From positions 1-29,449 of the forward strand of contig DATGGC010000052.1 of assembly GCA_035308745.1 (NCBI GenBank): 29,449 nt of DNA, written 5' to 3'. Positions 15,667 through 23,972 of this stretch are shown here, piece after piece; position 1 is the first letter of the stretch; every line of letters begins with the position of its first letter. Source of the DNA: Candidatus Limnocylindrales bacterium. Its GTDB lineage: Bacteria > Chloroflexota > Limnocylindria > Limnocylindrales > CSP1-4. Below the pieces are notes generated by a model, which worked only from the letters and a program-made list of their open reading frames with translations, searched no databases and was not told the origin of the DNA. Made by a program: the position numbers and the translations under genes.

Positions 15667-15698
15667 AGGCTACCGGCGGAACCTGAGCGCCACATGAA
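15667..15698 (-). promoter_or_regulatory. OmpR-family direct-repeat box plus -10 for the phosphoesterase gene
   Basis: Minus strand: TTCATGT-ggcg-CTCAGGT-tccgccgg-TAGCCT. Confidence 0.72.
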
Positions 15699-15711: not shown

Positions 15712-15743
15712 CTCAGGTAACCCTCAGGTTCAGCGCCCAGTCT
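15712..15743 (+). promoter_or_regulatory. OmpR-family direct-repeat box plus -10 for the GT87-Kelch-YVTN operon
   Basis: CTCAGGT-aacc-CTCAGGT-tcagcgcc-CAGTCT. Confidence 0.75.
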
Positions 15744-15751
15744 CGGCGTGG

Positions 15752-17164
15752 ATGGCAGCAAGCGGATCTACGTGGGGGCCGCCCCGCACGGCCGCGATAC
15801 GAGGCCTGACCTGGCTCCTGCCTGTCGTCGGCCTGGTCGTCGCGAGCGTAGGGGCGACAGGCCGTCCATTGGGCATGCCGGCGGCGCTGGCGCCTGTCGC
15901 AATTGCCGGGCCGGTCGTCCTTGCCGGAGCAGCCTGGCTGCTCGGCCTCAGGCTGGGACACGCAAGGTGGCTGCCTCTCGCCGTGCTTGGCATTGCCGTG
16001 CTCGGCATCATCGCGGCCCTGATCCTGCCAGGGCTCCTGGCGGACGTCACGCGGACGCGCGCACGACTCGAGCTGGATAGCGCGGCGGCCGGGGTCGTCG
16101 CCGTGGGCATCGTGATCGGCCACGTCCGCGGGAGGCGGCCCAGCTCGCTCGATCTTCTCGTCGGGATCGCCCTCGTTGCGATGGTGATCACGGACCTCGC
16201 GATCGTCCATTCGGTCTATCAACGGGACCTCAACCTGTACCTCGATGCCGGGCACGACTTCCTCGCTGGTCGGCCGGTCTACGCCCAGGTTCCACTGACG
16301 GTCGCGCCGGCCGACCTCACCCAACTGCCCTTCGTCTATCCGCCGGTCACGCTGCCGCTGTTCGCCGCCCTGGCTGCGTTGCCGCAGCCCCTGGTCTCCG
16401 TTTTCTGGCTCGTCCTGCAACTGCTCGCGGCCTTCGCGGCGATCCGGCTCGTCGGGGTGCCCTCGCGCTGGGCGGGCGTGCTGCTCCTGTGGCCGCCCTT
16501 TGTGCAGGGTGTCTGGGTCGGCAATGTGGCGATCTGGATGGTTCTGATCTTTGCCCTCGTTCCATTTCGTCGATTCGTCGTGGGGCTGCCCGCGATGTTC
16601 AAGTTCCAGGCGGGCGTCGCCGGCCTGTGGCTGATCAGGGAGCGGGATTGGAACGCGCTCGGTGGGGCCATCGGGCTCGTGATTGCACTTGTGCTGATCA
16701 CCCTTCCGCTCGTCGGGATCGGGGCCTGGTCCAACTGGTATCACGGGTTGCTCGCGTTTCAACGGACGACCGTCAATATTCCGGGGATCCGCGGGCTGGC
16801 ACTCTCGCGCTGGATCGGTGAGCTTCTCGCCCTGACGCTCGCGGTCGCGATCGCCGGGATCAGCCTGTGGGCCGGACGCCGGGCCAGCCTCGCCAACCTT
16901 GGATTGGCTGGCGTCGCGGTGTCACCAACGCTGTACCTCCATGGCCTGACCCTCGCGCTGCCAGGATTCCTGCAGCTTCGGGCTGCGGTGTTCTGGTTGC
17001 TCCTCATCGGCACGTTCAGCACGGGTCTGAAGGGCTGGCTCTGGCTGATCCTCCTGGTGGCGGCGCTCGCGCCGGTCATTCCGCAATTGCGGCACCAGCC
17101 GTCCGAAGCCGAATCGGATTGGCAGCCACTCGGCCGGTCGGACGGCCCGTGGCCGGCTTCGTGA
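15752..17164 (+). CDS. GT-C glycosyltransferase family 87 (DUF2029)-like
   Basis: RDLNLYLDAGHDFLAGRPVY..PFVYPP loop motif, GNV..W, K-F-Q motif, multiple TM helices, and an extra N-terminal 4-TM region. Confidence 0.85.
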   Translation: MAASGSTWGPPRTAAIRGLTWLLPVVGLVVASVGATGRPLGMPAALAPVAIAGPVVLAGAAWLLGLRLGHARWLPLAVLGIAVLGIIAALILPGLLADVTRTRARLELDSAAAGVVAVGIVIGHVRGRRPSSLDLLVGIALVAMVITDLAIVHSVYQRDLNLYLDAGHDFLAGRPVYAQVPLTVAPADLTQLPFVYPPVTLPLFAALAALPQPLVSVFWLVLQLLAAFAAIRLVGVPSRWAGVLLLWPPFVQGVWVGNVAIWMVLIFALVPFRRFVVGLPAMFKFQAGVAGLWLIRERDWNALGGAIGLVIALVLITLPLVGIGAWSNWYHGLLAFQRTTVNIPGIRGLALSRWIGELLALTLAVAIAGISLWAGRRASLANLGLAGVAVSPTLYLHGLTLALPGFLQLRAAVFWLLLIGTFSTGLKGWLWLILLVAALAPVIPQLRHQPSEAESDWQPLGRSDGPWPAS

Positions 17165-18207
17165 GAGCCTCATCTGGACGACGCAGCGGGTGGCTCGGCG
17201 TCGTCCTGTCGGCAGCCTTCGTGCTCGCGTCGTGCGCCAGCCAGCCGATCTCGCCGGCGCCCTCGATCGCCGGCCCGCTCGCCTCGTCGGCTCGTCCAAG
17301 TGCCGAGCCGGCTGTAGCCGAGAGCCCGTCTGCGAGCCTTGGCACGCCGCCGGTGCCCGCCGCGCGAGGTCTGCGCATCGAGCGATCGGCCATCCGGCTG
17401 CCGGCCGGCCGCAGCCGATCGGTAGCCCTGCTCCTCGGATCGGAGATCCTCGTATGCGGCGGGCTCACGGCGGCCGGCACGACCGATTCGATCCTCCGGA
17501 TCAACCTGCCAGCCGGCGCGATCGAGGCCCACGGCACGTTGCCGGCACCTGTCCACGATGCCGGCGGCGCCGTCCTCAACGGGGTCGGGTTCATCTTCGG
17601 CGGTGGAAGATTCGGACCGGGCGCAACCGTCCAGCGCGTCGGAGCCAACGGGAATGCGGCCTCCAGCGGGCGCCTGCCGGCCGATCGGGCCGACCTCGTC
17701 GCCGTCGCCATTCCCGGCAGCCTGGCACTGGTCGGTGGAGGAACCACCACCTTCTACGACCGGCGCGTGCTGGCGACCAGTGACGGCCTGCACTTCACCC
17801 AGATCGCGACGTTGCTCGTCGGGGTCCGCTATCCGGCCGTGACGTTCGACGGCGGCCGCATCTACGTGATCGGTGGCAGCACGGCGTCCGGCGACACGAC
17901 CGCCATCCAGGCGATCGATCCCGCGACCGGCCGGGTCCAATTGATCGGACGCCTGCCTCGGGCCCGGTCCCATGCTGCCGCGTTCGTCGTCGGCGGAGCC
18001 CTGCTGATCGCCGGTGGTCGGGTCGCTGGCCAAGCCCAGGACAGCGTCCTCCGGCTCGATCCTGCGACTGGGACCGTCCGCCAGGTGGGCCGCCTGCCGT
18101 ACCCGGTCTCGGACCTGGCCGTGGCCGTGGTCGGGACGACGGCCTACCTGATGGGCGGCGAGTCGGCGGCGCCGCTCGCGTCGGTCGTCACGGTCTCCAT
18201 GACCTGA
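17161..18207 (+). CDS. Kelch-repeat beta-propeller lipoprotein
   Basis: GTG overlaps the GT87 stop (GTGA); MRASSGRRSGWLGVVLSAAFVLAS-C lipobox; six repeats with GG (LVCGG, FIFGGG, ALVGGG, IYVIGG, LIAGG, AYLMGG). Confidence 0.85.
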   Translation: MRASSGRRSGWLGVVLSAAFVLASCASQPISPAPSIAGPLASSARPSAEPAVAESPSASLGTPPVPAARGLRIERSAIRLPAGRSRSVALLLGSEILVCGGLTAAGTTDSILRINLPAGAIEAHGTLPAPVHDAGGAVLNGVGFIFGGGRFGPGATVQRVGANGNAASSGRLPADRADLVAVAIPGSLALVGGGTTTFYDRRVLATSDGLHFTQIATLLVGVRYPAVTFDGGRIYVIGGSTASGDTTAIQAIDPATGRVQLIGRLPRARSHAAAFVVGGALLIAGGRVAGQAQDSVLRLDPATGTVRQVGRLPYPVSDLAVAVVGTTAYLMGGESAAPLASVVTVSMT

Positions 18208-18217
18208 TGGATCGCCG

Positions 18218-19525
18218 GTGACAGACGCCCCGCGGCCGCGCCAGAATCAGCGCTCACAGGCTCATCGCCGACGGGCTCAACGGATTCCGCCGCGCTGGCT
18301 GGCCGCGGTCGGCCTCATTGGCCTGGCGGCGCTGATCACGGTCGGGTCGATGCTGGGCGGCCGATCCGGCCTGCCGGCCAGCTCAGGCAACATTGCGGAG
18401 GCGATCTCTCCGGCCGGCTCGGCCCCGACGCTTGCACCGATGACTCCGCCAAGCCTGGGGCCAATCAGCAGTGTCGGACCGACGGCAAGTCCGTCGCTCG
18501 CCTCGAGCGGACCCACGGGCAGCTCGTCGAATATCTATGCGGCTGCCGGGGTGGGCATGTTCTCCCCGACGGTTCGAGCCTTTCCACCACGGGTGTACGT
18601 GCCCGATGAGCTGACCGGGACGGTGATCGTCATCGATCCGCTCACGTTCAAGATCCTGTTCCGCTACCCGGTCGGGGCCTCGCCTGAGCATGTCACGCCC
18701 GACTGGGACCTCCAGCGCCTGTACGTGGAGGCCGCCTTCGGCAACCGGCTGACCGTCATCGATCCAGGGACCGGTCGGGTCATCGGCTACCACTCGGTCC
18801 CAGGCCCGTACAACCTGTACTTCACGCCCAACGGCAAGTTCGCGATCGTGGTCCGCGATGCCGCGCAGGCCTACGGCGGCCAGCACCAGCTCTACTTCTA
18901 CGACCGACGGACCTGGCACCTGATCAAGGCGGTTCAGATCCCCTGGGCGGGCGCCGACCACCTCGACTTTTCGGCCGACGGGAGCTACTTCCTGCTCAGC
19001 ACGGAGTACGCGGGCTGGGTGGCCAAGGTGAGCGTCGCGAAGATGCAGGTCGTTGGCGCCCTGTACGTGGGCGGGCACCCGATCGATGTCCGGCTGGCGC
19101 CCGACGGCAAGACGTTCTTCGTGGCCGACTATGTGAGTGGCGGAGTCTCGGTCGTCGACCCGGTAGCCATGCGTGTCGTCGCCTTCATCAGGACCGGACG
19201 GGGCGCCCACGGCCTGTCGCTCAGCCGGGACGACAGGTCGCTCTACGTGACCAATCGGCTGGCCGGCTCACTGTCCGTGATCGACCTTCGGACCCGGCGG
19301 GTGGTGCACACCTGGTCGATCGGCGGAACGCCCGACATGATCGCCGTCTCGCCCGACGGCAGCCAGCTGTGGATCTCGAACCGCTACAGCGGCAGCGTCA
19401 CGGTCATGAACGCCCACACCGGGCACGTGATCATCGTCATCCACGTGGGCGGCCACCCCCACGGCCTGGCCTACTTCCCCGAGCCCGGCCGCTACAGCCT
19501 GGGCCACAACGGCATCTATCGCTGA
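18218..19525 (+). CDS. Membrane-anchored YVTN/YncE-type beta-propeller protein
   Basis: TM helix and S/P-rich linker; repeats VYVPD..VIVIDP, YFTPNGK, FSADGSY, LAPDGKTFFV, LSRDDRSLYVTNR, VSPDGSQLW; C-terminus PEPGRYSLGHNGIYR. Confidence 0.88.
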   Translation: MTDAPRPRQNQRSQAHRRRAQRIPPRWLAAVGLIGLAALITVGSMLGGRSGLPASSGNIAEAISPAGSAPTLAPMTPPSLGPISSVGPTASPSLASSGPTGSSSNIYAAAGVGMFSPTVRAFPPRVYVPDELTGTVIVIDPLTFKILFRYPVGASPEHVTPDWDLQRLYVEAAFGNRLTVIDPGTGRVIGYHSVPGPYNLYFTPNGKFAIVVRDAAQAYGGQHQLYFYDRRTWHLIKAVQIPWAGADHLDFSADGSYFLLSTEYAGWVAKVSVAKMQVVGALYVGGHPIDVRLAPDGKTFFVADYVSGGVSVVDPVAMRVVAFIRTGRGAHGLSLSRDDRSLYVTNRLAGSLSVIDLRTRRVVHTWSIGGTPDMIAVSPDGSQLWISNRYSGSVTVMNAHTGHVIIVIHVGGHPHGLAYFPEPGRYSLGHNGIYR

Positions 19526-19549
19526 GGCAGAACGGTGGACTGGCCGGGG

Positions 19550-19581
19550 CTCAGGTTGGCTTCATGTCCGCTGCCCACGCT
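19550..19581 (+). promoter_or_regulatory. OmpR-family direct-repeat box plus -10 upstream of the sORF-RR-HK-GT operon (probable autoregulation)
   Basis: CTCAGGT-tggc-TTCATGT-ccgctgcc-CACGCT. Confidence 0.72.
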
Positions 19582-19665
19582 GGCCATGGATGGCTCCTGG
19601 TTTCGGAGACCGCATCCCGCGGGAGCCATCCGCTTGACCACCATGCGGCGAGCTCGGAGGGCAGC

Positions 19666-19785
19666 GTGTCAGCGATCGTCTTCCTGGGGATCAACCTCGC
19701 AGGCAAGCAATTGGTCGTCGTCGTCGTGGTGATGGCCGTCGTCATCATTGCCGGCTTCTGGCTTCTGCTGCGCCGTCGCCGATAG
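19666..19785 (+). CDS. 39-aa single-pass membrane peptide
   Basis: GGAGGG SD at 19656-19661, then GTG 19666. MSAIVFLGINLAGKQLVVVVVVMAVVIIAGFWLLLRRRR has a TM helix and a poly-Arg tail. Confidence 0.65.
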   Translation: MSAIVFLGINLAGKQLVVVVVVMAVVIIAGFWLLLRRRR

Positions 19786-19872
19786 CGGATTGACGTCGAT
19801 GATGCACCTGACCGGTCGGACAGGGTGGTCATGTCGGCCTGCCCCGGGCGCCTCTCCTGACGCGGATTCACG

Positions 19873-20622
19873 ATGGGATTAGGATCGCGTGCGGCGGATC
19901 CGGTCGCTGAAGGAGCCGGGCCGGGGAGGACCCAGCTGCGCATCTTGGTCGTCGAGGACGAGTCTGCGATCGCCGATGGCCTCAAGGTTGTCTTGAGCTC
20001 AGATGGGCATGCGGTCGACGTGGTTGGCGACGGACTCGACGCGCTGCGCTGGGCGGAGACCTACCCGTATGACCTGGTCATCCTCGATGTCGTGCTGCCG
20101 AGCCTGGACGGCTTCGAGGTGTGCCGGCGGCTTCGGGCTGCCCGATTTGTTGCACCGATCCTGATGCTCACGGCCCGGGACAGCGTCGAGGACCGGGTGA
20201 ACGGGCTCGACCAGGGAGCCGACGACTACCTCGCCAAGCCTTTCGCCGTTGCCGAGCTGCGGGCCCGGCTCCGGGCACTGCGCCGACGAGTCGGGACCGA
20301 GCGGGCAGGGTCGCTGACGGTCGGGGACCTGACCCTCGATCCGCCGACCATGCGGGTGACCCGGGCAGGCCGGGAGATCCGGCTCACGACCCGAGAGTTC
20401 GCGTTGCTCGAGCTGCTGGCCCGACACCCCGGCCAGCTCTTCACCCAGGAGCGCCTGCTGGATGCCCTCTGGAACGCCGACTTCGTGGCCGAGTCGAACG
20501 TCGTGGAGGCCTTTATCCGGAGCCTTCGGCGCAAGGTGGACGACGGTCGGCGCAACGGGCTCATCGAGACCGTCCGCGGCGCTGGATACCGCTTGCGTGT
20601 CGTTCCCGAGGCAGCGGCCTGA
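19873..20622 (+). CDS. OmpR/PhoB-family response regulator (MprA/CssR-like)
   Basis: ILVVEDE, VILDVVLP, ILMLTARDSVEDRVNGLDQGADDYLAKPF; winged helix LTTREFALLELL..SNVVEAFIRSLRRKV..IETVRGAGY. Confidence 0.96.
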   Translation: MGLGSRAADPVAEGAGPGRTQLRILVVEDESAIADGLKVVLSSDGHAVDVVGDGLDALRWAETYPYDLVILDVVLPSLDGFEVCRRLRAARFVAPILMLTARDSVEDRVNGLDQGADDYLAKPFAVAELRARLRALRRRVGTERAGSLTVGDLTLDPPTMRVTRAGREIRLTTREFALLELLARHPGQLFTQERLLDALWNADFVAESNVVEAFIRSLRRKVDDGRRNGLIETVRGAGYRLRVVPEAAA

Positions 20623-21584
20623 TGTTCCAGCGGGCTCGTCGTCGTCTGACGGTCCTCTACGTCGTCCTCTTCGCCCTGGTATTCGCGGTCTTCAGCGTCG
20701 TCTTCTATGTCGCCTTTCGGACCGTCCTGGGTCCGGCATTCGACATCGCCCCCGACCTCTCGTCCAGCCAGGCCGCCGGGCTTGCCTACCAGGTGGCACT
20801 CGAGCGAGTTGGGATCGCGCTGATCGTCGCCAACCTGCTGACGATTGGGCTGGTCGCCGTTGCCGCGTGGGTCCTCGCCAACCGAACCCTGCGGCCGATC
20901 CGTGATGCGCACGCCCGCCAGCGGCGGTTCGTGGCCGACGCCTCGCACGAGATGCGGACCCCGCTTGCGGCGATCCGGGCGACGGCTGAAAGCAGTCTCG
21001 AGCCGGCCGTCCGGGTCGACGACCTCAGGGCCGACATGGTCCGGATCATCGAAGCGGCCGAGCGCCTGACGAAGATCACCAACGACCTGCTCATCCTGGC
21101 CAGCGCCGACGACCGCTTGATCGAGCCGGCAAAGGAGCCGTTTGACCTGTCCGTCGCGGTGGCTGAGGCGATCAGCACATTCCGGGTCGCCCATCCGGGC
21201 ACCGACCAGATCCGGGTGAACCTGGTGCCCGACCTGCGCGTGCGGGGCGAGCCCGAAGGATGCGATCGAATCGTGACCAACCTGCTCGACAACGCTGTTC
21301 GCTACGGTGGTCCGGCAGCGGCGGTCCAGGTCACGATGTCGGCGACGGATCACGAGGGCGTCGTCGAGGTGGCCGATCACGGGCCGGGGATCGATTCACA
21401 GGACCTCGATCGCATCTTCGAACCCTTCTATCGGGTCCGCGCCGATACGGGCGGTCCCTCCGGCAACGGCCTGGGCCTCGCGATCGCGCGCAGCCTGGCG
21501 GAGCGTTCCGGAGGCCACCTGAGCGTGACGAGCCAGGCCGGATCCGGTGCGACGTTCCGCCTGGCCCTGCCGCGCGTCAGCTAA
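20622..21584 (+). CDS. Membrane sensor histidine kinase (HisKA + HATPase, short extracytoplasmic loop)
   Basis: ATG overlaps the RR stop (TGATG); 2 TM helices; FVADASHEMRTPL, NLLDNAVRYG, DHGPGI, IFEPFYRV, GLGLAIA. Confidence 0.95.
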   Translation: MFQRARRRLTVLYVVLFALVFAVFSVVFYVAFRTVLGPAFDIAPDLSSSQAAGLAYQVALERVGIALIVANLLTIGLVAVAAWVLANRTLRPIRDAHARQRRFVADASHEMRTPLAAIRATAESSLEPAVRVDDLRADMVRIIEAAERLTKITNDLLILASADDRLIEPAKEPFDLSVAVAEAISTFRVAHPGTDQIRVNLVPDLRVRGEPEGCDRIVTNLLDNAVRYGGPAAAVQVTMSATDHEGVVEVADHGPGIDSQDLDRIFEPFYRVRADTGGPSGNGLGLAIARSLAERSGGHLSVTSQAGSGATFRLALPRVS

Positions 21585-21590
21585 CGAAGG

Positions 21591-23075
21591 ATGAGGCGGA
21601 GCCGATGGGCCGCATCGGCAGCCGGTCTCTTGCCCGGGGTCAGTGCGGCCGTCGCGATCGGGTTGCTCCTCGTCGTGTTCGTGCGGGTCGATCCGCCAAG
21701 CGGCGTCACGGCCAGCGCCAGCCCATTCACCGATGAGGCCTGGCACGTCCTCAATGCCCGCAACCTCGTGCTCTTCGGCCAGTTCTCGACCGATGACTAC
21801 AACCTCCACTTGCTCACGGCGCCGTTCAGCGTCGCGGTCGCCGCGGTCTTCAGCGTGCTCGGGGTTGGAATGGCCCAGGCTCGGCTGGTCGCCATCCTGG
21901 CGACGGGCCTGACGGTCGGACTGCTGGCGATCGGCCTGCGCTCGATCGTCGGCCGCTGGCCGGCGCTCGTTGCCGGACTTGCCTTCGGCACGTCGGCACT
22001 GGTCCTCTACTACGGCCGCCTGGCATTCCTCGAGCCGCTCGAAGGGCTGTTCCTGGTGACCGCGCTGGTCCTGGTGGTTCGCGACGGTGAGCATCACCGA
22101 TTCGTGCTCGGCTTGGTTGCCGGGATCGCGCTGGCCCTGGCGATCGGGACGAAGGCCAGCGCGGCCATCCCCGCCGCGGGGATCGTTGCCGGACTGGCGG
22201 TGGCACATGTCAGGGAGCGGCGAGATTGGCGCCTGGTCACCGGGTGCATCAGCGGCCTGGGCCTGTCCGCCGCCGGCTGGCTGGTCGCCGTGGGCTTGCC
22301 CAACATGCACGCCCTGCCCGCCGTGCTCTCGACGCTGCCGCCCGAACCACTGCCCGGCTCGGTTGATGAGCTCCTGAAGCGCGTTGCCGGGTACGTCGTC
22401 CACAGCGACGGGGCATGGCCCATGGCCGGGCCGTTGATCGTCGGGACGCTGATCGCTGGTGCAATCGGAGTCGCGGCGCGGTCGCGCCTGAGTGCGCCGC
22501 AGCGAACGCTGCTGCTGGTGGCGACCGGCTGGGCCGTCGCCGGCTTCGCGATCCTGTTCCTCGTCCCCTACCGGCCGAACCGCTACGTCGTCCCGCTGCT
22601 CCCGGCGCTGGCCGGTATCGTCGGAGTCGGCCTCGCCCTACTGGCTGGCTTCGAGGTCCGCCGGCGCGTTCAGCAGCTCAGCCTTGTCGCCGTCGGGGTG
22701 CTCGCCGTGGCTGGCCTCACGGCACCAGGGCTGGTGCTGGACGCTCATTGGATGGCAACGACCCCGAGCACGCTGCCGGGCATCCAGGCGCGGGTTGCCG
22801 GATTGCTGCCTCCGGGAGCTACGGTTCAGGGTGCGTATGCGCCTCTCCTGGCGATGACGGCGCGGGTCACCGCCATCGTGGTCTGGCCCGGCGGCAAGGT
22901 GAACGCGGGCGACCTCTATGCCAGCCGTGGGGTTCGGTGGGTCGTGGGGACACCCGGGCGAGCCGCCGATGTTCCGAGCTGGGTCAGCCTCCACCCGGGC
23001 GCCTGGGCCGTCCGGCGAACGGTCGACTGCGTGCCCTGGGGTGGCGACCAGGTCTGCCTCTGGGCCGTGCCCTGA
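21591..23075 (+). CDS. GT-C glycosyltransferase, ArnT/GT39/GT83-like
   Basis: FTDEAWH acidic first-loop motif; about 12 TM helices; YYGRLAFLEPL; GTKASA; PNRYVVPLLP. Confidence 0.8.
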   Translation: MRRSRWAASAAGLLPGVSAAVAIGLLLVVFVRVDPPSGVTASASPFTDEAWHVLNARNLVLFGQFSTDDYNLHLLTAPFSVAVAAVFSVLGVGMAQARLVAILATGLTVGLLAIGLRSIVGRWPALVAGLAFGTSALVLYYGRLAFLEPLEGLFLVTALVLVVRDGEHHRFVLGLVAGIALALAIGTKASAAIPAAGIVAGLAVAHVRERRDWRLVTGCISGLGLSAAGWLVAVGLPNMHALPAVLSTLPPEPLPGSVDELLKRVAGYVVHSDGAWPMAGPLIVGTLIAGAIGVAARSRLSAPQRTLLLVATGWAVAGFAILFLVPYRPNRYVVPLLPALAGIVGVGLALLAGFEVRRRVQQLSLVAVGVLAVAGLTAPGLVLDAHWMATTPSTLPGIQARVAGLLPPGATVQGAYAPLLAMTARVTAIVVWPGGKVNAGDLYASRGVRWVVGTPGRAADVPSWVSLHPGAWAVRRTVDCVPWGGDQVCLWAVP

Positions 23076-23088
23076 GCCGGTCGCCCGC

Positions 23089-23871
23089 TCATCGGGCCCG
23101 GTCCGGTTCGGTGCGACCGATGCTTTGGGACACGACCAGGGCCACGATCAGGAGGGTGAGCGCCAAGCTCACCGATCCCGTTCCCAGTCCCAGGCCGCTC
23201 AGCGTCCTGGGTCGTCCGATCCAGTCGGCGAACGAGGCGCCGAAGGGCCGGGTCAGGATGTAGGCCGACCAGAATGCGACGACGGCATTCAAGCCCGCCA
23301 GCCGATACCCGAGGGCCGGGACGATGAACAGGCCTGCGAACAGGATCCCCGAAGCCAGGTAGCCCAGCCGGAGGGTGCTGGCGGTCATGTCACCCGTCGC
23401 GGTTCCAAGGGCGAACGTGGCCAGGACCGTGGCCCAGTAGAAGAGCTCGCGTCGGCGGCTGTCGATGGCATGGATCGAGAGGGTGCCTTCGCTGGACCGC
23501 CAGACACCAAAGACGACGGCGAGCACGAGGGCGAAGAACACGGTCGAGACGAGATACGGGACGCCCAGCTCGATGTGCAGGACATCGGCGGCCATCGTCC
23601 CGAAGATCGCGACCATCGCGACCACCAGCCAGTAGATCCCAGGGATGAACCGGTTGGCTCGGAGCTGCACGAGCAGCGCAAGGCCGAGGGCGACTGCCGT
23701 GACCGGAACGACCACCAGCGGGTTGAATGTTCGGACCAGGTAGTCGGAGGTCACCTCGCCCATCGCGGTCGTGAGGATCTTGATGACCCAGAAGCTGAGC
23801 GTGATTTCGGGGACTTTGCGCCTGGTCAGATCGGTTGGCCTGCGTCGGGCCAGGTCCATCGTCCGGGTCAA
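23089..23871 (-). CDS. DUF347/COG4705 membrane protein (internal repeat)
   Basis: KVPEITLSFWVIKILTTAMGEVTSDYL; YWLVVAMVAIFGTMAAD; RRRELFYWATVLATFALGTATGD; FWSAYILTRPFGASFAD. Start is TTG 23871 or ATG 23859. Confidence 0.9.
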   Translation of the reverse strand: MTRTMDLARRRPTDLTRRKVPEITLSFWVIKILTTAMGEVTSDYLVRTFNPLVVVPVTAVALGLALLVQLRANRFIPGIYWLVVAMVAIFGTMAADVLHIELGVPYLVSTVFFALVLAVVFGVWRSSEGTLSIHAIDSRRRELFYWATVLATFALGTATGDMTASTLRLGYLASGILFAGLFIVPALGYRLAGLNAVVAFWSAYILTRPFGASFADWIGRPRTLSGLGLGTGSVSLALTLLIVALVVSQSIGRTEPDRAR

Positions 23872-23940: not shown

Positions 23941-23972
23941 ACCGTAGCGCCTGAACCTGAGAGCCCGCTGAG
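23941..23972 (-). promoter_or_regulatory. OmpR-family direct-repeat box plus -10 for the DUF347 gene
   Basis: Minus strand: CTCAGCG-ggct-CTCAGGT-tcaggcgc-TACGGT. Confidence 0.72.

What the first reader, a model, noticed from the sequence alone, without database searches (positions are those of the whole stretch)
19666..19785. 39-aa membrane micropeptide at the head of the TCS operon
Seen: strong SD (GGAGGG), GTG start, a long Val-rich TM helix and an RRRR stop-transfer tail, located between the regulator box (19550) and the response regulator. Established: small TM proteins such as MgrB and SafA modulate their cognate kinases. Inference: this could be a feedback modulator of the 20622 kinase, whose very short extracytoplasmic loop suggests intramembrane sensing.
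Basis: partly seen in the sequence, partly recalled or inferred. Interest (0 to 1): 0.62.

Follow-up and report, generated by a model that had tools for sequence, protein, structure and literature searches.

The report
Small membrane protein, glycosyltransferase-linked
The 39-codon reading frame ahead of the two-component system is a real, conserved gene for a one-helix membrane protein, but its relatives point to a partnership with cell-envelope glycosyltransferases (GT87/PimE type) and not with the sensor kinase.

Summary
Window 19666-19785 (+) is a GTG-started 39-codon ORF with a GGAGGG ribosome-binding site, one long hydrophobic helix and an RRRR tail. It lies between a CTCAGGT-N4 direct-repeat box and an OmpR-type regulator.

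It is far more than chance. Its codon usage is typical of genes. Only 13 of 840 intergenic regions in this genome hold a comparable ORF, and none of 16,800 shuffled regions does.

It belongs to an undescribed family of 37-48-aa proteins. I recovered 33 further genomic copies from 9 genera of one Chloroflexota family. Almost all have their own ribosome-binding site and start codon. No Pfam or NCBIfam model matches.

The kinase-modulator reading is not supported by comparison. Only this genome and one sister species (G006) place the gene next to a regulator and kinase.

Within the genus, the gene instead travels with a GT87 / Kelch / YncE / phosphoesterase envelope cluster:
- In G007 its stop overlaps the start of a GT87 gene.
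- In G010, and in 42 of 121 database homologues, the same module is fused as an extra N-terminal helix to a PimE-like GT87 enzyme.

Best reading (about 0.45): it is a detachable accessory helix of GT-C glycosyltransferases, co-regulated here with the two-component system. The function itself is untested.

The parts
19550..19567 (+). Direct-repeat box CTCAGGT-N4-TTCATGT, the presumed binding site of the OmpR-type regulator and so the operon's control region
   Evidence: matches with at most 2 mismatches occur only at 15681(-), 15712(+), 19550(+) and 23955(-), all in promoter gaps; a perfect repeat sits at the same distance in G006. That the regulator binds here is inferred.
19588..19631 (.). 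Inverted repeat GGATGGCTCC - 24 nt - GGAGCCATCC with a conserved loop core GAGACCGCATCCC
   Evidence: It is single-copy and conserved in G006. It can also be read in the N-terminal over-extensions of database proteins P0123-P0125, in a shifted frame, so it is non-coding. It is absent upstream of the other 31 family members. No Rfam hit. Function unknown.
19656..19661 (+). Ribosome-binding site GGAGGG
   Evidence: A GGAG-type site 5-12 nt before the start is seen in almost all of the 34 family loci.
19666..19785 (+). sORF: a 39-aa single-helix membrane protein (P0001) with a conserved N-terminal LG-x4-G motif, a hydrophobic helix, a Trp and an RRRR tail
19786..19872 (+). Spacer between the sORF and the regulator; no terminator or stable fold
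   Evidence: no terminator-like site. (fold z-score +1.6). In G006 the spacer is 58 nt shorter and not alignable.
19873..20622 (+). OmpR-family response regulator. The ATG at 19873 is shared with G006; a public gene call starts 24 codons later.
20622..21584 (+). Histidine kinase: two transmembrane helices, a loop of about 31 aa, HisKA + HATPase_c, no HAMP
21591..23075 (+). PMT_2-type GT-C glycosyltransferase, the last gene of the operon
   Evidence: Conserved (66% identity) after the kinase in G006 only.
15752..17164 (+). GT87 glycosyltransferase heading the adjacent GT87-Kelch-YncE operon. Its relatives sit next to the sORF in G007 and G010.
18218..19525 (+). YncE-like beta-propeller directly upstream. 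The Kelch-YncE-sORF order is shared with G010.

Best explanation
The ORF at 19666-19785 is a real gene for a 39-aa single-pass membrane protein. Its N-terminus faces outward and its Arg tail lies in the cytoplasm.

It belongs to an undescribed family confined, among the genomes searched, to one Chloroflexota family. The family is homologous to an extra N-terminal helix ('TM0') that many PimE-like GT87 glycosyltransferases carry ahead of their canonical GT-C core.

The most likely function is a detachable accessory helix. It would dock in the membrane onto a GT87-type (or other GT-C) glycosyltransferase of the local envelope-modification cluster and tune its stability or activity.

In this genome and in G006 the gene has come to lie first in a box-controlled sORF-regulator-kinase-GT-C operon. 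The two-component system therefore probably co-regulates it with its glycosyltransferase effectors.

Shown: the gene is real; the family exists; the module is homologous to the fused form; the synteny holds. Inferred: topology, physical docking, co-transcription, and regulation by the box.
For: The gene is real:
- Codon usage is typical of genes.
- Comparable ORFs are rare in real intergenic regions and absent from shuffled ones.
- Against G006, the peptide shows two in-frame 3-nt indels, a stop at the same position, loss of alignment right after the stop, and upstream indels that are not multiples of three.
- dN/dS is 0.34, against 0.12 for the regulator and 0.09 for the kinase.

The family exists:
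- A profile search of 1.84 billion proteins found 7 members.
- A six-frame profile search found full-length members in about 33 genomes of 9 genera, and in none outside that family among 301 genomes of the phylum.
- The 33 further genomic copies fetched are 37-48 aa. Almost all have a GGAG-type ribosome-binding site.
- One Gly is invariant; a second Gly and two of the tail Arg are nearly invariant.
- AlphaFold2 gives a single helix over residues 2-38, mean pLDDT 84.

The link to glycosyltransferases:
- In G007 the sORF stop overlaps the GTG start of a GT87 gene (GTGA).
- In G010 the module is fused in frame to a GT87-like protein that follows Kelch (59% identity) and YncE (74% identity) and precedes a box plus a second GT87 gene.
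- Of 121 database homologues of that protein, 42 (all but one of them 360-380 aa) carry the module at residues 1-37, with E-values down to 1e-11. The forms of about 335 aa lack it.
- The fused form models confidently (pLDDT 88, pTM 0.82). It matches PimE at Z 22.7 from residue 59 onward, so the module lies outside the GT-C core.
- G000 has the short form on contig C59; its GT87 score is 26 bits against a cut-off of 25.
- G005 has copies near a GT87-like gene and near the phosphoesterase.
Against: - Outside genus g1 the family shows no glycosyltransferase neighbour. The 143 neighbouring genes fall into 131 Pfam families. The commonest are DMFA2_C (5) and ECF sigma, kinase and GT87 (4 each).
- GT87 genes are numerous (12-19 per genome), so some adjacency is expected. 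The g1 cases are related genomes, not independent events.
- Homology to a fused helix shows common origin. It does not show that the free peptide binds a glycosyltransferase.
- In the fused model the module is only moderately confident (pLDDT 45-80).
- There is no expression or interaction data.
Confidence: 0.45

Rival explanations
1. Kinase modulator. The peptide binds the transmembrane region of the kinase at 20622 and feeds back on signalling, as MgrB does on PhoQ.
For: It is probably co-transcribed with the regulator and kinase under a box conserved in G006, which is a feedback-capable layout. The kinase has only two helices and a short loop, so any input probably comes within or at the membrane. 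Small membrane proteins that act on kinases are well documented (PMC8404706, PMC12648545).
Against: Only 2 of 34 family loci have a TCS downstream. Kinase orthologues at 51-71% identity in G005, G010, G011, G012, G017 and G021 have no such ORF upstream of the regulator, wherever that region is on the contig. Kinases within 3.5 kb of other members occur at about the chance rate. The family's fusion partner is a glycosyltransferase, not a kinase.
Confidence: 0.13
2. Free-standing housekeeping micropeptide. Its partner, or its membrane role, is encoded elsewhere and is neither a glycosyltransferase nor the kinase. Its place in this operon is an accident of gene order.
For: Neighbourhoods across 9 genera are highly variable. 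At least 8 loci have a convergent gene downstream, so the gene can stand alone.
Against: The repeated coupling, fusion and synteny with GT87 cluster genes within genus g1 is more than expected from the GT87 copy number.
Confidence: 0.3
3. Cis-acting upstream ORF or leader peptide. Its translation, not its product, controls expression of the regulator. The run of six Val codons suggested attenuation.
For: It lies in the 5' part of the transcript, 87 nt before the regulator. A conserved inverted repeat lies upstream.
Against: The Val run is not conserved, even in G006. The peptide sequence is under purifying selection and is conserved across genera. Many members have no same-strand downstream gene. 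The spacer has no terminator or stable fold.
Confidence: 0.03
4. Chance ORF in a conserved non-coding leader, never translated.
For: At 71% G+C, a 39-codon open frame is common. The frame is open for 138 codons.
Against: All the coding evidence.
Confidence: 0.04
5. Type I toxin-like or holin-like membrane-damaging peptide.
For: It is small, hydrophobic and has a charged tail. One family member has a sub-threshold holin hit (E 0.0016).
Against: It is single-copy, with a distribution that looks vertical across 9 genera. It has a strong, exposed ribosome-binding site. It occurs fused to an enzyme. No antisense or antitoxin feature was seen (not specifically tested).
Confidence: 0.03

Closest known systems
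Ost4, the 36-aa single-helix subunit of the eukaryotic oligosaccharyltransferase, whose catalytic subunit STT3 is a GT-C enzyme (from my own knowledge)
   Same: A micropeptide of one transmembrane helix that is thought to pack against a GT-C fold glycosyltransferase in the membrane.
   Different: No sequence relationship. Ost4's binding is shown experimentally, whereas here it is inferred from gene fusion and synteny. Here the same helix exists both free and fused to the enzyme.
MgrB (47 aa) and SafA (65 aa), small membrane proteins that inhibit or activate the kinase PhoQ (PMC8404706, PMC10576120, PMC12648545)
   Same: A small single-pass membrane protein whose expression is probably controlled by a two-component system.
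   Different: No Pfam or NCBIfam match. MgrB and SafA act through a periplasmic C-terminal region; this peptide has a cytoplasmic Arg tail and at most about 13 outward-facing residues. They are not encoded in the kinase operon. This family is generally not kinase-linked.
PmrR of Salmonella, a PmrA-activated 29-aa membrane peptide that inhibits the lipid A-modifying enzyme LpxT (from my own knowledge; not found in the paper read)
   Same: The logic proposed here: a small membrane peptide controlled by a two-component system that acts on an envelope-modifying membrane enzyme, and so could feed back on the sensor indirectly.
   Different: Unrelated sequence and a different enzyme class. Nothing here has been tested.
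PimE (GT87 mannosyltransferase; PDB 9dm5 and 9dm7)
   Same: The fused relatives of the peptide have a PimE-like core (Z 22.7, rmsd 3.7 over 280 residues).
   Different: The PimE alignment starts at model residue 59. The peptide-like helix and its linker are an N-terminal addition that PimE lacks.

Membership tests
New micropeptide family (free 'TM0' peptides of this Chloroflexota family) | Own start codon 6-9 codons before the invariant LG, with a GGAG-type ribosome-binding site; length 37-48 aa | tested here: met
   Window: GGAGGG, then 4 nt, then GTG; 39 aa. Family.
New micropeptide family (free 'TM0' peptides of this Chloroflexota family) | Motif: hydrophobic N-terminus with LG-x4-G, a polar pair, a helix of about 20 hydrophobic residues, Trp, then an Arg-rich end | tested here: met
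   Profile E 2e-22 per genome. One Gly is invariant; a second Gly and two tail Arg are nearly invariant (alignment A4).
N-terminal module of long-form PimE-like GT87 proteins | Sequence homology between the free peptide profile and residues 1-37 of the fused proteins | tested here: met
   42 of 121 homologues match at the N-terminus over the whole profile, with E down to 1e-11. The other helices of these proteins do not match.
N-terminal module of long-form PimE-like GT87 proteins | Physical association of the free peptide with a GT87 enzyme | not testable with these tools
   No multimer prediction is available. Natural fusions and the GTGA overlap in G007 are indirect evidence only.
MgrB / SafA-type kinase-modulating small proteins | Sequence membership (Pfam or NCBIfam model) | tested here: not met
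   No hit for the window peptide or for any of the 34 members.
MgrB / SafA-type kinase-modulating small proteins | Consistent genomic or regulatory link to one kinase across relatives | tested here: not met
   A TCS lies downstream in 2 of 34 loci.
MgrB / SafA-type kinase-modulating small proteins | Binding to the kinase and an effect on its output | not testable with these tools
   Needs co-folding, two-hybrid or reporter assays.
LPXTG-type C-terminal sorting signal | Sorting motif before the helix, and a score above the model cut-off | tested here: not met
   TIGR01167 scores 14.0 bits against a cut-off of 15.9, covering only the helix and tail. There is no LPXTG-like motif, and the protein has its own start codon.
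Leader peptide / attenuator | Always followed by a regulated same-strand gene, with alternative RNA structures in between | tested here: not met
   At least 8 loci have a convergent downstream gene. The spacer has no stable fold and there is no Rfam hit.
Intramembrane-sensing histidine kinase (the neighbouring kinase at 20622) | Two helices joined by an extracytoplasmic linker of under about 25 residues and no other input domain (criterion recalled from my own knowledge) | tested here: inconclusive
   The loop is about 31 residues by reading the translation. Only HisKA and HATPase_c are found. No dedicated topology predictor was available.

The most novel reading that the evidence does not exclude
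The two-component system controls the supply of a detachable transmembrane helix. That helix completes or activates 'short-form' PimE-like GT87 glycosyltransferases encoded elsewhere in the genome. Envelope glycosylation would then be switched at the level of enzyme assembly. The resulting surface change could feed back on the kinase, as in the PmrR circuit. This would be the first bacterial GT-C enzyme with a regulated micropeptide subunit.
Probability: 0.12. Interest if true: 0.72.

Novelty: new variant of a known kind. Interest (0 to 1): 0.42.

Why it matters
Small membrane proteins are routinely missed or mis-started by gene callers. This one is on public record only as a 73-aa product read from a wrong upstream ATG.

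The case shows a whole family that exists both free and fused to a PimE-like glycosyltransferase. That is a rare, testable lead to the partner of a bacterial micropeptide. It suggests that GT-C enzymes in bacteria may have micropeptide subunits, as the eukaryotic oligosaccharyltransferase does.

It is also a caution. Position at the head of a two-component operon is not, on its own, evidence of kinase modulation.

The organisms are uncultured Chloroflexota, so any test would have to be heterologous.

Tried and rejected
- **Word-indexed protein search with the peptide.** A 41-aa in-frame extension found nothing. The window's own record is 73 aa, just outside the 22-72 aa range searched.
- **Metagenome scan with the two-sequence alignment.** 597 pattern hits, none confirmed.
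- **Metagenome scan with the regulator.** 80 loci. The closest (62-79% identity) have no hydrophobic sORF upstream.
- **DNA search of 400 family genomes.** Only G006 gave a true hit. The rest were GTC-repeat noise.
- **Scan of genome contigs with five sequences.** Only G006.
- **The look-up of encoding contigs was closed.** The contigs of P0123-P0128, and of the closest regulator homologues P0003 and P0004, could not be read. Whether the metagenomic members that carry the inverted repeat also precede a TCS is therefore unknown. Contig lengths gave no clue either.
- **Library searches.** Rfam found nothing on 19400-20000. A PDB profile search gave only generic transmembrane helices at E of 0.16 or worse. 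The ESM Atlas gave only unnamed 41-42-aa clusters at 0.83.
- **Promoter and terminator scan.** Nothing found.
- **Val-codon attenuation.** Rejected, because the Val run is not conserved.
- **Relic of a C-terminal anchor of the upstream propeller gene.** Rejected: the frame differs, the ORF has its own ribosome-binding site, and G006 has a different upstream gene.
- **Fusion in G010 as an assembly error.** Rejected, because 42 independent database proteins share the fused architecture.
- **Unpublished genomes.** G111, G165, G217, G223 and G376 were among those searched. G111's locus (L144) was seen but left out of alignment A4 and of the 34 loci analysed.

Full report
**1. What is in the sequence**

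Window 19666-19785 (+) reads GTG ... TAG, 39 codons, kept as protein P0001. GGAGGG lies 4 nt upstream of the start.

The product has four parts: a 13-residue hydrophobic N-terminus, a Lys-Gln pair, about 20 hydrophobic residues rich in Val, then Trp-Leu-Leu-Leu and four Arg.

Gene order around it:

| Coordinates | Strand | Feature |
|---|---|---|
| 16867-18207 | + | Kelch-repeat protein |
| 18218-19525 | + | YncE-like propeller |
| 19666-19785 | + | the sORF |
| 19873-20622 | + | OmpR-type regulator |
| 20622-21584 | + | HisKA/HATPase kinase |
| 21591-23075 | + | PMT_2-type GT-C glycosyltransferase |
| 23089-23871 | - | DUF347 protein, convergent |

The genome is a 2.8-Mb, 71% G+C metagenome-assembled genome. 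Names attached to close regulator homologues, and to the sister genome, place it in Chloroflexota, possibly Limnocylindrales.

**2. Is it more than chance?**

ORF length is no evidence at this G+C content. The frame is open for 138 codons. Three tests show it is coding.

- *Codon usage.* A codon log-odds model trained on this genome's long genes gives +22.3 bits. That is typical of true coding windows, and only 1.4% of off-frame windows reach it. The other five frames are negative.
- *Rarity.* Of 840 intergenic regions, only 13 hold a 25-70-codon ORF that combines a ribosome-binding site, gene-like codon usage and a transmembrane-grade hydrophobic stretch. The other twelve look like real small proteins, for example Flp-type pilins. 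None of 16,800 dinucleotide-shuffled regions passed.
- *Comparison with G006,* the closest species, whose kinase and regulator are both 84% identical to the window's.
  - A 39-aa homologue, 61% identical, has an ATG start and a GGAG site.
  - Two 3-nt indels fall inside the ORF. The stop is at the same position, and the alignment collapses directly after it.
  - Upstream indels of 1, 1, 5 and 7 nt destroy the frame there, so the start at 19666 is the real one.
  - dN/dS is 0.34, against 0.12 for the regulator and 0.09 for the kinase.

**3. A family**

An exhaustive profile search of 1.84 billion proteins found seven records, all matching at their C-terminal ends. One is the window's own ORF, on record as a 73-aa product from a wrong upstream ATG.

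A six-frame profile search of 401 genomes of the same taxonomic family gave full-length matches in about 33 genomes of 9 genera. In a sample of 301 genomes of the phylum, the only full-length matches were in this family.

I fetched 33 loci.
- Almost all have a start codon 6-9 codons before an invariant Leu-Gly, preceded by a GGAG-type site.
- They encode 37-48 aa.
- The consensus is LLAxTxLGxxFSG, a polar pair, a hydrophobic helix, Trp and RRR (alignment A4).

No Pfam, NCBIfam or PDB relative exists. AlphaFold2 predicts one helix over residues 2-38, pLDDT 84.

**4. Is it tied to the two-component system?**

Locally, yes.
- The CTCAGGT-N4 direct repeat at 19550 recurs in the window only in the four promoter gaps of this cluster.
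- It is perfect, and at the same distance, in G006.
- The spacer to the regulator has no terminator or stable fold.

The sORF is therefore plausibly the first cistron of sORF-regulator-kinase-GT-C, an order shared with G006.

Family-wide, no.
- None of the other 32 loci has a regulator and kinase downstream.
- Kinase orthologues at 51-71% identity in other genomes lack the sORF. So do regulator loci from metagenomes.
- The 143 neighbouring genes fall into 131 Pfam families.
- At least 8 loci have a convergent gene downstream, which also rules out a general leader-peptide role.

**5. What it does travel with**

Within the genus, the gene keeps company with the envelope cluster.

| Genome | Arrangement |
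|---|---|
| G006 | phosphoesterase (76% identity), divergent from sORF-regulator-kinase-PMT_2 |
| G007 | the sORF stop overlaps the GTG start of a GT87 gene (GTGA) |
| G010 | Kelch (59%) - YncE (74%) - sORF module fused in frame to a GT87-like protein - box - GT87 |
| G005 | one copy 2 kb from a GT87-like gene, another near the phosphoesterase |

The fusion is not an artefact.
- Of 121 database homologues of the G010 protein, 42 carry the module at residues 1-37, with E down to 1e-11. All but one of them are 360-380 aa.
- Most forms of about 335 aa lack it.
- The long form models well (pLDDT 88, pTM 0.82).
- It matches the GT87 mannosyltransferase PimE at Z 22.7 over model residues 59-354. The module and a linker helix are therefore an N-terminal addition to a canonical GT-C core.

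The fusion also gives the topology by inference. An invariant Asp lies in the loop that follows the first core helix (alignment A6). In GT-C enzymes that loop is extracytoplasmic. The Arg-rich link after the module must then be cytoplasmic, and the conserved N-terminal motif faces outward. This agrees with the positive-inside rule.

G000 itself has a short-form gene on contig C59 and only one copy of the free peptide.

**6. Reading**

The gene is real (about 0.95). Its most likely role is a detachable accessory helix for GT87-type or other GT-C glycosyltransferases, co-regulated with the two-component system in this lineage (about 0.45).

A kinase-modulator role is possible only as a lineage-specific addition (about 0.13). 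An unrelated housekeeping role remains open (about 0.3).

Caveats:
- GT87 genes are abundant, at 12-19 per genome.
- The genus-level cases are not independent.
- Outside the genus there is no glycosyltransferase neighbour.
- No interaction could be computed.

**7. Comparison with known systems**

It works, if the inference holds, like Ost4 with STT3, or like PmrR with LpxT. It is not a member of the MgrB or SafA families (PMC8404706, PMC12648545).

It is a new family within the known kind 'small membrane-protein partners of membrane enzymes'. Its unusual feature is that free and fused forms coexist.

Noticed in passing
window 19588-19631: Perfect 10-bp inverted repeat with a 24-nt loop holding a conserved core GAGACCGCATCCC. 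It is single-copy, conserved in G006, and readable in the mis-extended N-termini of three metagenomic records. It is absent upstream of all other family members. It may overlap the promoter or be an operator. Function unknown.
   Followed up: partly
window 15681-15698(-), 15712-15729(+), 19550-19567(+), 23955-23972(-): CTCAGGT-N4-CTCAGGT direct repeats (at most 2 mismatches) occur only in the four promoter gaps of this cluster. The same box precedes the sORF in G006 and a GT87 gene in G010. This fits a local regulon of the OmpR-type regulator.
   Followed up: partly
G000 contigs C415, C241 (two), C148; C24 and C336; C253, C194, C103, C32, C305, C392, C57: Twelve other intergenic sORFs pass the same filter (ribosome-binding site, codon usage, hydrophobic helix). 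Four look like Flp-type pilins. Two are near-identical 28-29-aa peptides with a Gly/Ile/Val-rich helix. They were found in regions that my own crude gene mask left uncovered; public annotation was not checked.
   Followed up: no
G000, G005, G006, G007, G010 (whole genomes): The GT87 glycosyltransferase family is strongly expanded, at 12-19 copies per genome of about 3 Mb, several of them in tandem clusters.
   Followed up: no
window 19873-19945: The regulator's start is ambiguous. The ATG at 19873 is shared with G006 but has no clear ribosome-binding site. A public gene call (P0002, 225 aa) starts 24 codons later.
   Followed up: partly
L157, L177, L180, L183 (loci of G158, G256, G178, G312): An ECF-type sigma factor lies on the opposite strand near the sORF in four loci from three genera. 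It is directly upstream and divergent in three of them and downstream in the fourth (L180). In three other loci (G189, G204, G216) the sORF is followed within 25 nt by an Rrf2-like regulator.
   Followed up: no
L186 (G012:C82), around the start of the fused GT87-like gene: The long-form gene in G012 has no ordinary start codon in frame at the head of the module. An ATG lies one frame off. This may be a sequencing indel or an unusual start.
   Followed up: no
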